Virus record (IMG/VR): IMGVR_UViG_2802429223_000002
Length of the DNA stretch: 43,156 nucleotides
Strand: one strand, 5' to 3'
Origin: a virus
Taxonomy: Duplodnaviria > Heunggongvirae > Uroviricota > Caudoviricetes
In this document: positions 2,455 through 3,512 of the stretch, piece by piece
How positions within the stretch are numbered: the stretch's first letter is position 1
Layout of the letters: each line of letters starts with the position of its first letter
Translations under genes and position numbers: made by a program
Notes under the pieces: model-generated
Seen by the model: the letters and a program-made list of their open reading frames with translations, nothing else
Told to the model about the DNA's origin: nothing
Database searches by the model: none

Positions 2455-2500
2455 CACGTTCTTGCATACAACGTGCCTGCGGTTTTTGAGACCGGTCCGA
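2455..2500 (+). terminator. terminator-like hairpin plus T5, degenerate copy of the element at 3469-3512
   Basis: GCACGT...ACGTGC stem extended by CAG/CTG, then GGTTTTT; about 80 percent identical to the hairpin after the GIY-YIG gene. Confidence 0.35.
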
Positions 2501-2673
2501 TCATCAAACGAAACATAAAATTAGCTCACACTATGAGGAAAAGTATCTTTTTTTACTATGTAAATTCAAAGAATTAGCCTCATTTACCCGATAGTTTTCT
2601 CAACACTACTGGTTGTGAGCCCTTGCAATGTTCATTAATATACGTCTCACAAATAATTCATAGATATTGCAAA

Positions 2674-3447
2674 ATGGATATTACTGAGTTTCCTTCTGGA
2701 GTAATTGAACACCTTGGCTGGTATGTATACCGATTGATTGATCCGAGGGACGGAAGCACCTTCTATGTAGGGAAAGGCAAAGGTAACCGCGTATTTGCCC
2801 ATATGCGCGGTGAAGTGGCAGCGACTGATGATGACGAGTTACTGAGCAACAAGCTAAAGCAAATTAGAGAAATAAGGTTAGCAGGACTTGAGGTTATCCA
2901 TGTCATCCATCGACACGGAATGACTGATGAAAAGACGGCGTACGAAGTTGAAGCAGCACTTATTGATGCCTACCCTGGGTTAACGAATATCATGAATGGT
3001 GCTGGCAGCAATGAATTCGGCGCCGCGCATGTCAAAGAGTTGATAGCAACATATCAACCCGAAACCATAACATTTCATCATAAAGCATTAATGATTTCCG
3101 TTAACAGAAGTGCAAAGGATTCAGAGCTTTATGATGCGGTTCGATTTAGCTGGCGCATTAATGTCTCTCGCGCCAGCCAAGCAGAAGTCATTCTTGCTAC
3201 TGTAAGGGGGATCGTTCGAGGGGTTTTCATTGCTGATAAATGGCTCAAATCAACACGTGAAAATTTCCCTACGATGAAATACTGGGACGAGGATCCGGAC
3301 TTTGAGGCAACACAAAGTTCTCGCTATGGTTTTGAAGGTCGAGAAGCCCCACCTGAAATAGCAAATCTTTATCTTGGAAAAAAAATACCAGATGAATTAA
3401 GAAAAAAAGGAGCTATGTCCCCGGTCCGTTACTCACCTAATTTTTGA
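2674..3447 (+). CDS. GIY-YIG nuclease-domain protein with uncharacterised C-terminal domain
   Basis: N-terminal [28 protein letters not shown] fits GIY-(10-11 aa)-YIG-R-H spacing; ATG 2674 preferred (ORF track starts at TTG 2623); AT-rich. Confidence 0.6.
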
Positions 3448-3468
3448 GTCTTTAAGTGATAAGCATAA

Positions 3469-3512
3469 ACCGCAGCACGTCATGCATACGTCGTGTCTGC
3501 GGTTTTTCTTTT
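3469..3512. terminator. bidirectional rho-independent terminator between convergent GIY-YIG gene and tfa
   Basis: CCGCAG...CTGCGG stem with extended pairing, followed by TTTTTCTTTTTT on plus strand and an A/T run on the other side. Confidence 0.6.

What the first reader, a model, noticed from the sequence alone, without database searches (positions are those of the whole stretch)
2455..3512. GIY-YIG gene is bracketed by two homologous terminator hairpins (cassette signature)
The hairpin-T-tract at 3469-3512 (CCGCAGCACGTCATGCATACGTCGTGTCTGCGGTTTTT) has a degenerate copy at 2455-2500 (CAGCACGTTCTTGCATACAACGTGCCTGCGGTTTTT), about 80 percent identical by eye. The two copies flank the GIY-YIG gene. 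Spurious ORFs reading through both copies even end or begin with the same peptide (SCIQRACGF / SCIRRVCGF). This looks like a duplicated terminator created when a gene cassette was inserted, or a recombination target for moron exchange.
Basis: seen in the sequence. Interest (0 to 1): 0.5.

Follow-up and report, generated by a model that had tools for sequence, protein, structure and literature searches.

The report
Shared terminator hairpin brackets defence-gene cassette
Two copies of a roughly 35-base stem-loop, found in almost every E. coli genome at the tail-fibre end of prophages, bracket a known anti-phage restriction gene here, and comparison with other prophages shows that both copies are points where neighbouring gene modules have been swapped by recombination.

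Summary
Hairpin A (2449-2487) and hairpin B (3470-3507) match at 33 of 39 positions, loop included, and bracket a 257-aa GIY-YIG gene (2674-3447).

The gene is PD-T4-3/CMoRE, a characterised type IV restriction enzyme that cuts 5hmC/glucosyl-5hmC phage DNA. It is not a homing endonuclease.

The hairpin belongs to a family with 14,359 copies in 5,259 of 5,426 complete E. coli genomes. It also occurs in lambda, HK97 and Stx phages. Its usual setting is dinI-like gene -> hairpin <- tfa or pinE.

The flank left of hairpin A is a dinI pseudogene remnant. An "empty site" prophage (dinI -> one hairpin <- tfa) matches A's left flank and B's right flank.

In 165 copies, 7 left-flank types combine with 17 right-flank types. 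All four combinations of GIY-YIG/dinI with tfa/pinE exist, and the switch lies inside the stem. Crossover positions vary between events. This fits homology-driven exchange, not site-specific recombination.

A and B descend from different hairpin alleles, so they are not an in-situ duplication.

This is a new, well-documented example of a known principle: conserved boundary sequences and moron terminators in lambdoid phages. Interest is moderate.

The parts
2267..2285 (+). Separate intrinsic-terminator-like hairpin (AGGCCCTTTTCTAGGGCCT + TTTATT). It ends the upstream HTH/ImmA/small-ORF unit and marks the left edge of the dinI remnant.
   Evidence: Alignment A2 shows that homology to dinI loci starts just after it.
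2296..2372 (+). 3' fragment of a dinI-like gene, now a pseudogene with a 15-nt deletion and an in-frame stop.
   Evidence: Aligns to the 3' ends of annotated DinI-like genes in L002, L006, L008 and L010. Many evenly sampled rows of the E. coli search match this stretch under 'DinI-like family protein'. The translation contains a stop.
2373..2448 (+). Conserved ~75-nt leader (dinI 3' UTR) that precedes the hairpin in most contexts. It has its own stem-loop, GGCTGG 2402-2407 pairing with CCAGCC 2441-2446.
   Evidence: It is also present without dinI in lambda, HK97 and HK633.
2449..2487 (+). Hairpin A, a degenerate copy of the family with one A.C mismatch, plus a T5 run. It is the left recombination joint of the cassette.
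   Evidence: Homology to dinI loci ends at 2482-2487. Homology to other PD-T4-3 loci begins at 2464, 2477 or 2480.
2477..2499 (-). Fragment homologous to the anticodon arm of tRNA-Ser(CGA). It is the remnant of a prophage att core and shares CT-CGGTTTT with the right arm of hairpin A.
   Evidence: One search shows L004, L132 and L133 carrying the 3' two-thirds of the tRNA at this position. One search shows 78 nt 100% identical to annotated tRNA-Ser genes.
2488..2673 (+). Upstream region of the defence gene. 2488-2604 is shared at about 83% identity with the upstream region of a different cargo, an SDH serine protease. 2605-2673 is present in every copy of the cassette and presumably holds the promoter, which was not identified.
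   Evidence: break at 2605 in L008 and L009. One search found no sigma-70 match of at least 9/12 here.
2674..3447 (+). [quoted passage not shown] This is the cassette cargo.
   Evidence: PADLOC PD-T4-3, E = 2.4e-140, positions 1-256 of a 256-position profile. Pfam LEM-3_GIY-YIG. PDB 9U75, 574 bits over the full length. Function from PMC12923530.
3470..3514 (.). Hairpin B (3470-3502) plus TTTTTCTTTTTT. It is a terminator-like element between the convergent PD-T4-3 (+) and tfa (-) genes, and the right recombination joint.
3517..4101 (-). Lambda-type tail fibre assembly gene tfa, the last gene of the late operon and the right-hand neighbour of the cassette slot.

Best explanation
The two elements are copies of a conserved stem-loop of about 35 bp: a 10-bp stem with one bulge, a loop containing TGCATAC, and usually a T-run. 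Its normal place is the 3' end of a dinI-like moron, where it sits head-to-head with the last late gene (tfa or the pin invertase) at the end of E. coli prophages. It most likely acts there as a transcription terminator and insulator between convergent units.

The same 35 bp lies at this junction in lambdoid, Mu/P2-like and e14-like prophages. That makes it a patch of homology between genomes that are otherwise unrelated at this point. Recombination within it swaps whatever lies to the left against whatever lies to the right. The likely agents are RecA or phage Rad52-type recombinases, which tolerate short, diverged homology.

The window carries the product of at least two such events. One is dinI remnant + hairpin A joined to a prophage-end segment (tRNA-Ser att-core remnant + PD-T4-3 gene). 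The other is the PD-T4-3 3' end joined, inside hairpin B, to the tfa side of a lambda-type prophage. The result is a 1,021-bp defence-gene cassette bracketed by two hairpin alleles.

Shown: the homology, the empty site, the combinatorial flanks, the crossovers inside the stem, and the cargo's identity. Inferred: terminator activity, which enzymes mediate the exchange, and the order of events.
For: 1. Empty site. L006 has dinI -> one hairpin <- tfa. Its bases 3939-4144 match window 2296-2487 and its bases 4105-4737 match window 3468-4100, overlapping on the single hairpin.

2. Two-by-two table (alignment A4). GIY-YIG|tfa (window, L004), GIY-YIG|pinE (L133), dinI|tfa (L006) and dinI|pinE (L010) all exist. 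The left arm CCGCAGCACG stays with the left gene. The loop, right arm and tail stay with the right gene.

3. Same chromosomal locus (paoD). L004 and L133 are 99.2% identical up to hairpin B, then diverge into lambda tfa versus pinE. The window and L004 share everything to the right of 2477 and nothing to the left.

4. In 165 hairpins from 131 loci, 7 left-flank types combine with 17 right-flank types in more than 30 combinations. Cargo next to the hairpin includes PD-T4-3, a SAM methyltransferase, an SDH protease, an IpaH-like LRR effector, a GGDEF protein and acyltransferases.

5. Crossover position varies. It lies in the left arm for the PD-T4-3 events and in the right arm for the methyltransferase events (L3/R1 ...GACGTGCTGCGG against L3/R6 ...GACGTGCTACGG). 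All four allele combinations at stem pair 4 occur (C-G 17, T-A 5, C.A 5, T.G 1). The mismatched C.A form is mainly in non-dinI recombinants.

6. Other cargo is bracketed in the same way. The methyltransferase has 1,050-bp spacing in 24 loci, the SDH protease 1,603 bp, and a 4.2-kb ssrA-core module also occurs.

7. The stem is maintained. 98% of stem cells are paired, and 4 of 10 pairs carry compensatory double changes.

8. Ubiquity. There are 14,359 places in 5,259 of 5,426 E. coli genomes, and the element is present in lambda, HK97 and Stx phages.

9. Published experiments show that lambda acquires DNA from Rac, Qin and DLP12 by homologous recombination on short, roughly 12%-diverged sequences, mainly through Red-beta-type recombinases (PMC3945230).
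Against: Terminator activity was not measured. The consensus terminator scan lists neither copy, because their loops exceed its 8-nt limit. The T-run is absent in 23 of 58 distinct contexts, for example Rac-type tfa (CATAATCCC) and a second invertase (CTTCCAAC), so termination cannot be the only reason the stem-loop persists.

Thirty-five base pairs at about 85% identity is at the low end of what homologous recombination uses. The first junction between each new cargo gene and the hairpin must have been made by some non-homologous event: PD-T4-3 stop + 22 nt, methyltransferase stop + 7 nt.

This prophage has no annotated Red/RecT-type recombinase. The viral-contig sample was cut at 120 loci and contains many near-identical prophages, so the counts are not independent events.
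Confidence: 0.75

Rival explanations
1. Hairpin-stimulated illegitimate recombination plus selection. The palindrome is a fragile or slippage-prone site where breaks and joins occur without homology, and only products that keep a terminator next to the cargo survive.
For: New cargo genes abut the base of the stem within 0-8 nt without the 75-nt leader: PD-T4-3 ...AAGCATAAA|CCGCAG, methyltransferase ...GCATCCAA|CCGCAG, and L5 ...TCAGCCAG|CCGTGG. Some PD-T4-3 loci keep only half of hairpin A, broken in the loop at 2464 next to a Dcm gene (L003 and L011). The A junction uses only about 10 nt of microhomology with a tRNA-Ser fragment.
Against: Most flank switches leave an intact, in-register hairpin. 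Its two halves carry the polymorphisms of the two parents, as expected for exchange within homology rather than end-joining. This mechanism probably creates new cargo-hairpin junctions and so complements the main explanation rather than replacing it.
Confidence: 0.15
2. Site-specific cassette system. The hairpin would be a dedicated recombination site recognised as a folded structure or palindrome by a recombinase (attC/IntI-like, a Pin-family invertase, or a phage integrase) that inserts and excises cargo cassettes.
For: The architecture of gene + imperfect palindrome, repeated in arrays, resembles integron cassettes. The hairpin often directly abuts pinE or a second invertase gene (52 of 165 copies). 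It also abuts att cores, namely the ssrA 3' end and a tRNA-Ser fragment.
Against: Crossover points differ between events, left arm against right arm. Sequence, not only structure, is conserved. The 49-kb region has no integron integrase, only the phage Int at the far end. The arms are 12-16 nt apart, unlike the 2-bp spacing of invertase crossover sites (consensus recalled from memory). The adjacency to pin is explained by convergent gene ends sharing a terminator.
Confidence: 0.06
3. In-situ duplication. Insertion of the cassette duplicated the resident terminator, like a long target-site duplication, and the copies then diverged.
For: The empty site has one hairpin and the occupied site has two in direct orientation.
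Against: A and B differ at 6 of 39 positions, whereas the cassette between them is 95-98% identical across hosts. A is identical to the hairpin allele of other dinI/R4 and R8 contexts. B is one substitution away from the dinI|tfa allele. In pinE contexts the downstream copy carries the pinE-type allele instead.
Confidence: 0.03
4. Homing. The GIY-YIG protein would be a free-standing homing endonuclease that cuts empty sites and copies itself in, giving the cassette-like presence/absence pattern.
For: It has a GIY-YIG nuclease domain and an intergenic position with presence/absence polymorphism.
Against: The protein is PD-T4-3/CMoRE over its full length. It has been shown experimentally to restrict 5hmC/5ghmC-modified phage DNA (PMC12923530) and to defend a native host. 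Non-nuclease cargo (methyltransferase, protease) is bracketed by the same hairpins.
Confidence: 0.01

Closest known systems
Short conserved boundary (linker) sequences between modules of lambdoid phages, proposed as sites of homologous recombination (Susskind & Botstein's modular theory; Clark et al. 2001 on HK620, from my own knowledge; the concept is summarised in PMC3029335)
   Same: A short sequence conserved at a module junction between otherwise unrelated flanks. Flank switches map inside it. It is found across different phage types.
   Different: Here the boundary sequence is a structured stem-loop that doubles as a gene-end terminator. It marks one particular slot, the cargo locus beyond tfa or pin. 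It occurs in tandem, so it brackets cassettes. I found no paper describing this element.
Morons of lambdoid phages (Juhala et al. 2000; Hendrix et al. 2000, from my own knowledge; mentioned in PMC3029335)
   Same: An extra gene that is present or absent between conserved phage genes, has its own terminator, benefits the lysogen, and is active in the prophage state.
   Different: Classical morons are described as independent insertions, each with its own promoter and terminator. Here unrelated cargo genes share one homologous terminator, and that terminator is the exchange point. No promoter could be assigned.
Integron gene cassettes with attC sites
   Same: The unit is an ORF followed by an imperfect palindrome. 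Arrays of such units carry adaptive cargo, and each junction palindrome is a chimera of two parents.
   Different: There is no IntI. Crossover position is variable. Primary sequence is conserved at about 85-95%, whereas attC conserves structure. The element also lies at convergent gene ends.
Exchangeable effector loci of lambda-like prophages (term cited in 10.1101/2020.11.04.367953) and prophage defence hotspots
   Same: The same genomic place, the very end of the prophage beyond the tail-fibre genes, with variable effector or defence cargo. An IpaH-like effector, a retron, PD-T4-3 and restriction-modification genes were seen here.
   Different: Those descriptions define a region by its variable gene content. 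They do not, to my knowledge, identify a specific repeated hairpin as the joint.
Relaxed homologous recombination between lambda and defective prophages (PMC3945230)
   Same: Exchange in the stf/tfa region between lambda and Rac or Qin on short, diverged homology. It depends on Rad52-like recombinases or RecA.
   Different: The substrates tested there were hundreds of bp long. Exchange on 35-40 bp of about 85% identity is extrapolated, not shown.

Membership tests
PD-T4-3 / CMoRE (type IV modification-dependent GIY-YIG restriction endonuclease) | Full-length match to the family profile | tested here: met
   PADLOC PDLC04031, E = 2.4e-140, residues 1-256 on profile positions 1-255 of 256.
PD-T4-3 / CMoRE (type IV modification-dependent GIY-YIG restriction endonuclease) | Near-identity to the crystallised enzymes | tested here: met
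   9U75 (E. coli O157:H7 CMoRE) 574 bits and 9U7U 503 bits, both covering residues 1-257. The PDB codes are assigned to CMoRE in PMC12923530.
PD-T4-3 / CMoRE (type IV modification-dependent GIY-YIG restriction endonuclease) | N-terminal GIY-YIG nuclease domain | tested here: met
   Pfam PF22945 LEM-3_GIY-YIG, 54 bits against a cut-off of 27, residues 28-110.
PD-T4-3 / CMoRE (type IV modification-dependent GIY-YIG restriction endonuclease) | Cleaves 5hmC/5ghmC DNA and protects against T-even phages | not testable with these tools
   Taken from the literature only.
Intrinsic (Rho-independent) terminator | Stable GC-rich stem-loop just downstream of a stop codon | tested here: met
   B folds at -20.3 kcal/mol (z = -4.7), 22 nt after the PD-T4-3 stop and 14 nt after the tfa stop on the other strand. 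A folds at -14.6 kcal/mol (z = -1.05) with one A.C mismatch.
Intrinsic (Rho-independent) terminator | U-run immediately 3' of the stem | tested here: inconclusive
   In the window the run is TTTTT for A and TTTTTCTTTTTT for B. Across the family only 35 of 58 contexts have at least 5 T in the next 8 nt on the + strand, and 12 of 58 on the - strand. The consensus scan lists neither copy because the loops exceed 8 nt.
Intrinsic (Rho-independent) terminator | Transcripts end there | not testable with these tools
   Needs Term-seq, 3' RACE or in-vitro transcription.
Moron (autonomous extra gene in a temperate phage) | Gene present or absent between otherwise adjacent conserved phage genes | tested here: met
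   L006 and L010 are empty sites. The window, L004, L133 and L005 are occupied.
Moron (autonomous extra gene in a temperate phage) | Own promoter | tested here: inconclusive
   No sigma-70 match of at least 9/12 in 2488-2673. By eye the best candidate is weak: TTGTGA, 17 nt, TAATAT at 2613-2641.
Moron (autonomous extra gene in a temperate phage) | Own terminator | tested here: met
   Hairpin B.
Conserved boundary sequence used for homologous exchange between phage modules | The same short sequence lies at junctions with many unrelated flanks | tested here: met
   7 left-flank types by 17 right-flank types among 165 copies.
Conserved boundary sequence used for homologous exchange between phage modules | Flank switches map inside the sequence, and hybrids carry both parents' polymorphisms | tested here: met
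   Alignment A4, the hairpin-by-context table, and all four allele combinations at stem pair 4.
Conserved boundary sequence used for homologous exchange between phage modules | Exchange depends on homologous-recombination enzymes | not testable with these tools
   Inferred from PMC3945230.
Integron attC cassette array | Integron integrase next to the array | tested here: not met
   The 49-kb annotated region has only a phage tyrosine integrase at the opposite prophage end. It was not scanned with an IntI-specific model.
Integron attC cassette array | A single fixed crossover point in the site | tested here: not met
   Crossovers lie in the left arm in the PD-T4-3 events and in the right arm in the methyltransferase events.
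Free-standing GIY-YIG homing endonuclease gene | Protein belongs to a homing-endonuclease family and cuts the intron-less or empty allele | tested here: not met
   The best and only family assignments are PD-T4-3 and LEM-3-like GIY-YIG. Its published activity is on modified phage DNA. Cleavage of the empty site was not testable.
Pin/Gin/Hin invertase crossover site | Two ~12-bp inverted half-sites separated by a 2-bp core | tested here: not met
   By inspection the inverted arms are 10 bp long and 12-16 nt apart. The consensus was recalled from memory, not scanned.

The most novel reading that the evidence does not exclude
The ~110-nt unit (75-nt leader with its own stem-loop plus the hairpin) could be more than a passive terminator. 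It might be a dedicated cassette-capture element of E. coli prophages, either a structured recombination site acted on by a recombinase or a 3'-UTR-derived small RNA with a function of its own. Its spread to about 97% of E. coli genomes, lambda and HK97 would then reflect selection for that function. In that case the hairpin could be used like attC to enumerate a prophage 'cassette-ome' of defence and virulence genes.
Probability: 0.08. Interest if true: 0.75.

Novelty: new member of a known kind. Interest (0 to 1): 0.42.

Why it matters
The work gives a concrete, sequence-defined joint for the variable cargo locus at the tail-fibre end of E. coli prophages. That locus holds defence genes (PD-T4-3, retron Ec48, restriction-modification systems), type III effectors and surface-modification genes.

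Conserved boundary sequences have long been proposed as one route to phage mosaicism, but they are rarely identifiable at mosaic junctions (PMC3029335). Here is one with about 14,000 copies, visible hybrid alleles, and all four parental and recombinant configurations.

In practice the hairpin can serve as a search handle for uncharacterised cargo genes next to it. It also explains how PD-T4-3 moves between lambdoid, Mu/P2-like and e14-like prophages. It does not reveal a new mechanism or a new gene function.

Tried and rejected
- Rfam scan of 1900-3800 at E <= 1 found no family for the hairpin or leader. The hits were IS009 inside tfa and a chance astrovirus-frameshift match.
- ARAGORN on L001, L002, L006 and L007 found no tRNA. 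The tRNA-like flanks are fragments and were identified instead by BLAST against annotated tRNA-Ser and by comparison with ssrA in L003.
- The promoter/terminator consensus scan listed neither hairpin and found no promoter upstream of the gene.
- MAFFT alignment A1 of hairpins alone misplaced the bulge. I therefore counted pairs with a script and then on the better alignment A3.
- Protein comparison on the dinI remnant failed because of the in-frame stop. That stop is itself evidence of a pseudogene.
- The homing-endonuclease idea was dropped after the PADLOC, PDB and literature identification.
- The in-situ duplication idea was dropped after the allele comparison.
- Hits in Streptomyces, Enterococcus, Pseudoxanthomonas and other assemblies are short, low-coverage contigs 88-99% identical to lambda-like E. 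coli prophage DNA. I read them as contamination, not as wide taxonomic spread.
- A literature search for DinI-like + tail fiber assembly + hairpin found nothing.
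Full report
**1. Observation**

- Hairpin B is CCGCAGCACGTCATGCATACGTCGTGTCTGCGG at 3470-3502, followed by TTTTTCTTTTTT.
- Hairpin A is CCACAGCACGTTCTTGCATACAACGTGCCTGCGG at 2449-2482, followed by TTTTT.
- A gap-free 28-nt repeat is 86% identical. With one gap, 39 nt align at 84.6% (E = 6e-5 in about 70 kb).
- The identity includes the loop core TGCATAC and both arms, so it goes beyond a generic GC stem.
- B is a strong hairpin: -20.3 kcal/mol, z = -4.7. A is weakened on the + strand by an A.C mismatch: -14.6 kcal/mol, z = -1.05.

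**2. Setting**

The window is a lambdoid prophage of E. coli. The region is 99.9% identical to strain NS-NP030, where the prophage lies between thrW/proA and paoD.

On the window's + strand the order is:
- BRO-N gene (1-762, minus strand)
- HTH gene and ImmA/IrrE gene (about 1069-1983)
- two small ORFs and a terminator (2267-2285)
- hairpin A
- the GIY-YIG gene (2674-3447)
- hairpin B
- then, on the minus strand, tfa (3517-4101), stf, lom and J.

**3. The cargo**

The 257-aa protein matches the PADLOC model PD-T4-3 end to end (E = 2.4e-140). It carries a LEM-3-like GIY-YIG domain. It scores 574 bits against PDB 9U75.

That entry is E. coli O157:H7 CMoRE. CMoRE is the renamed PD-T4-3, a type IV restriction endonuclease that degrades DNA containing 5hmC or glucosyl-5hmC (PMC12923530). 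PD-T4-3 also protects a natural isolate against T-even-like phages (10.1101/2024.12.20.629700).

The gene is therefore a defence moron, not a homing endonuclease.

**4. What the hairpin is**

Window 2296-2487 aligns with the last ~80 nt of annotated DinI-like genes, their ~75-nt 3' untranslated leader, and the hairpin that follows them. In the window the dinI part is a pseudogene with a 15-nt deletion and an in-frame stop.

The usual arrangement in other prophages is dinI-like -> hairpin <- tfa (L006) or dinI-like -> hairpin <- pinE (L010).

Distribution of a 43-nt consensus of the element:
- 14,359 places in 5,259 of 5,426 complete E. coli genomes, median 2 and maximum 10 per genome.
- 129 phage records, including lambda (24,162-24,201, between ea31 and ea47), HK97 (between sib and tfa), HK106, HK75, HK633, Stx phages and Gifsy-1.
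- Among one-genome-per-species representatives it appears in E. coli, Shigella flexneri and E. albertii. Most hits in unrelated taxa are short, low-coverage contigs 88-99% identical to lambda-like DNA, which I read as contamination; three others showed no similarity to these prophage loci and were not examined further.
- None of the records I inspected annotates it, and Rfam has no family for it.

**5. Empty and occupied sites**

L006 carries a single hairpin. Its left flank matches the left flank of A (window 2296-2487) and its right flank matches the right flank of B (window 3468-4100). The two matches overlap on that one hairpin. The window is thus this site plus a 1,021-bp segment and a second hairpin.

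The PD-T4-3 segment occurs in roughly half of the 1,793 E. coli records that match 2200-3516, mostly next to pinE in Mu/P2-like prophages, including O157:H7.
- Left homology breaks fall at 2379/2382, 2464, 2477, 2480 or 2605.
- Right breaks fall at 3502-3505, unless the neighbour is also lambda-type tfa.

**6. Both hairpins are recombination joints**

Alignment A4 shows all four combinations of left gene (PD-T4-3 or dinI) and right gene (tfa or pinE).
- The left arm CCGCAGCACG follows the left gene.
- The loop, right arm and tail follow the right gene: TC(A/C)TGCATACGTCGTGTCTGCGGTTTTTC with tfa, and (A/T)TCTTGCATACGACGTG-CTACGGTTTCAT with pinE.

At one chromosomal locus (paoD), L004 and L133 are 99.2% identical from the AraC gene through PD-T4-3 up to hairpin B. 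They then continue into lambda tfa and pinE respectively. The window and L004 share everything to the right of 2477 and nothing to the left of it.

**7. Generality**

A pattern scan of viral contigs was cut at 120 loci. Together with the fetched genome loci it gave 165 hairpins. Clustering 80 nt on each side gave 7 left-flank types and 17 right-flank types in more than 30 combinations.

Left partners:
- the dinI leader
- PD-T4-3
- a class I SAM methyltransferase
- a 215-aa protein of unknown function.

Right partners:
- lambda-type or Rac-type tfa
- pinE and a second invertase
- the upstream regions of PD-T4-3, an SDH serine protease, an IpaH-like LRR effector, a GGDEF protein and acyltransferases
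- att-core fragments.

Thirty-four loci carry two copies bracketing cargo. Spacings are 1,021 bp for PD-T4-3, 1,050 bp for the methyltransferase (24 loci), 1,603 bp for the protease, and 4,168 bp for an ssrA-core module.

In the window's own genome a third copy lies about 200 nt left of the window start. It follows a retron Ec48 and abuts an ssrA 3'-end fragment. The prophage end is therefore an array:
- retron
- hairpin
- BRO-N/HTH/ImmA module
- hairpin A
- PD-T4-3
- hairpin B
- tfa.

**8. Mechanism**

Crossover positions differ between events.
- They lie in the left arm for PD-T4-3.
- They lie in the right arm for the methyltransferase...GCTTAAGACGTGCTGCGG with Rac tfa against ...GCTTAAGACGTGCTACGG with the effector flank.

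At stem pair 4 all four allele combinations occur: C-G 17, T-A 5, C.A 5 and T.G 1 distinct sequences. The mismatched C.A hairpins are mainly the non-dinI recombinants.

This pattern fits exchange within a short stretch of homology, not a fixed site-specific cut. Lambda acquires DNA from Rac, Qin and DLP12 by homologous recombination on short, roughly 12%-diverged sequences. Rad52-like recombinases matter most for such substrates (PMC3945230). I infer, without having shown it, that the same enzymes act here.

The first joining of each new cargo gene to the hairpin cannot have been homologous. Several observations suggest the palindrome also attracts non-homologous joins:
- cargo stop codons lie 7-22 nt from the stem base;
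- some loci keep only half of hairpin A (L003 and L011);
- the A junction shares only CT-CGGTTTT with a tRNA-Ser(CGA) fragment. That fragment is the att core of the prophage type that normally carries PD-T4-3.

**9. Not an in-situ duplication**

A is identical to the allele seen in other dinI/R4 and R8 contexts. B is one substitution from the dinI|tfa allele. A and B differ at 6 of 39 positions, whereas the cassette interior is 95-98% identical among hosts.

**10. Function of the stem-loop**

Its position between convergent genes, its stability and its T-runs in the window fit a bidirectional terminator or insulator. The stem is maintained: 98% of stem cells are paired, and 4 of 10 pairs show compensatory double changes.

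The T-run is missing in 23 of 58 contexts, so termination may not be the whole story.

The 75-nt leader upstream forms a second stem-loop with two covarying pairs. It travels with the hairpin even where dinI is absent, as in lambda, HK97 and HK633. An RNA-level role, for example a 3'-UTR-derived sRNA, is possible but untested.

**11. Comparison and verdict**

The element behaves like the short conserved boundary sequences proposed for lambdoid mosaicism (summarised in PMC3029335) and like a moron terminator. It sits in the region called the exchangeable effector locus in lambda-like prophages. It resembles integron attC cassettes in layout, but it lacks an integron integrase and a fixed crossover point.

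I found no description of this particular hairpin.

I rate it a new member of a known kind. Interest is moderate.

Noticed in passing
window 2373-2448 (stem GGCTGG 2402-2407 / CCAGCC 2441-2446); also L174 (lambda), L175 (HK97), L176 (HK633): A conserved ~75-nt leader precedes the hairpin in most contexts, even where no dinI gene is present: lambda between ea31 and ea47, HK97 between sib and tfa, and HK633 beside attP. It folds into its own stem-loop with two covarying pairs, giving a two-hairpin, sRNA-like unit of about 110 nt. PGAP labels it a partial 'capsid protein' on the opposite strand in some genomes.
   Followed up: partly
window 3560-3758, minus strand: A full-length Rfam match to IS009 (RF02111), 226 bits against a gathering score of 117, lies entirely inside the tfa coding sequence.
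   Followed up: no
window 2477-2499; L004 3945-4022: The sequence just right of hairpin A is the reverse complement of the tRNA-Ser(CGA) anticodon arm. In L004, L132 and L133 the 3' two-thirds of that tRNA (78 nt, 100% identical to the gene) lies directly upstream of PD-T4-3. This looks like the att core of the prophage type that usually carries the gene.
   Followed up: yes
L001 3813-3950 (about 150-290 nt left of the window start): A third hairpin copy with a leader remnant follows a retron Ec48 (RT plus effector) and runs straight into the last 27 nt of ssrA (GGGTTCAACTCCCGCCAGCTCCACCA) plus the sequence found downstream of ssrA in L003. This is an att remnant of an ssrA-integrating element now embedded at the paoD-side prophage end.
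   Followed up: partly
window 1069-2285: The HTH and ImmA/IrrE pair hits the PADLOC capH and capP models (E = 6e-11 and 5e-15). It is followed by two tiny ORFs (49 and 47 aa) and a terminator, with no recognisable effector. The same module, flanked by two hairpin copies, occurs at the prfC locus in L002.
   Followed up: no
L007 4001-5700 and 23 similar viral loci: A class I SAM methyltransferase moron is bracketed by two hairpin copies. Each copy is followed by a Rac-type tfa 3' end: a 227-nt remnant on the left at 81% identity and the intact gene on the right. Here the duplication includes part of tfa.
   Followed up: partly
L002 5540-5595: A variant stem-loop keeps the outer stem CCGCAG...CTGCGG but has a different interior (TATCCTATCATGACAAGTTA). 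It sits next to a different tail-fibre chaperone gene, which suggests exchange within the outer 6 bp or an independent terminator allele.
   Followed up: no
L141, L144, L147, L158, L163, L165, L167-L169, L173 and others (genome-contig hits): Short, low-coverage contigs in assemblies of Streptomyces, Enterococcus, Pseudoxanthomonas, Paenibacillus, Vibrio and other genera are 88-99% identical to lambda-like E. coli prophage DNA. They appear to be contamination of public assemblies.
   Followed up: partly
window 4101-7067, minus strand: The side tail fibre gene has a long Ala/Ser-rich low-complexity region and three near-identical repeats of ~46 aa ([19 protein letters not shown]...[13 protein letters not shown]). 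Its length differs from the otherwise 99.9%-identical NS-NP030 copy (988 against 1,024 aa).
   Followed up: no
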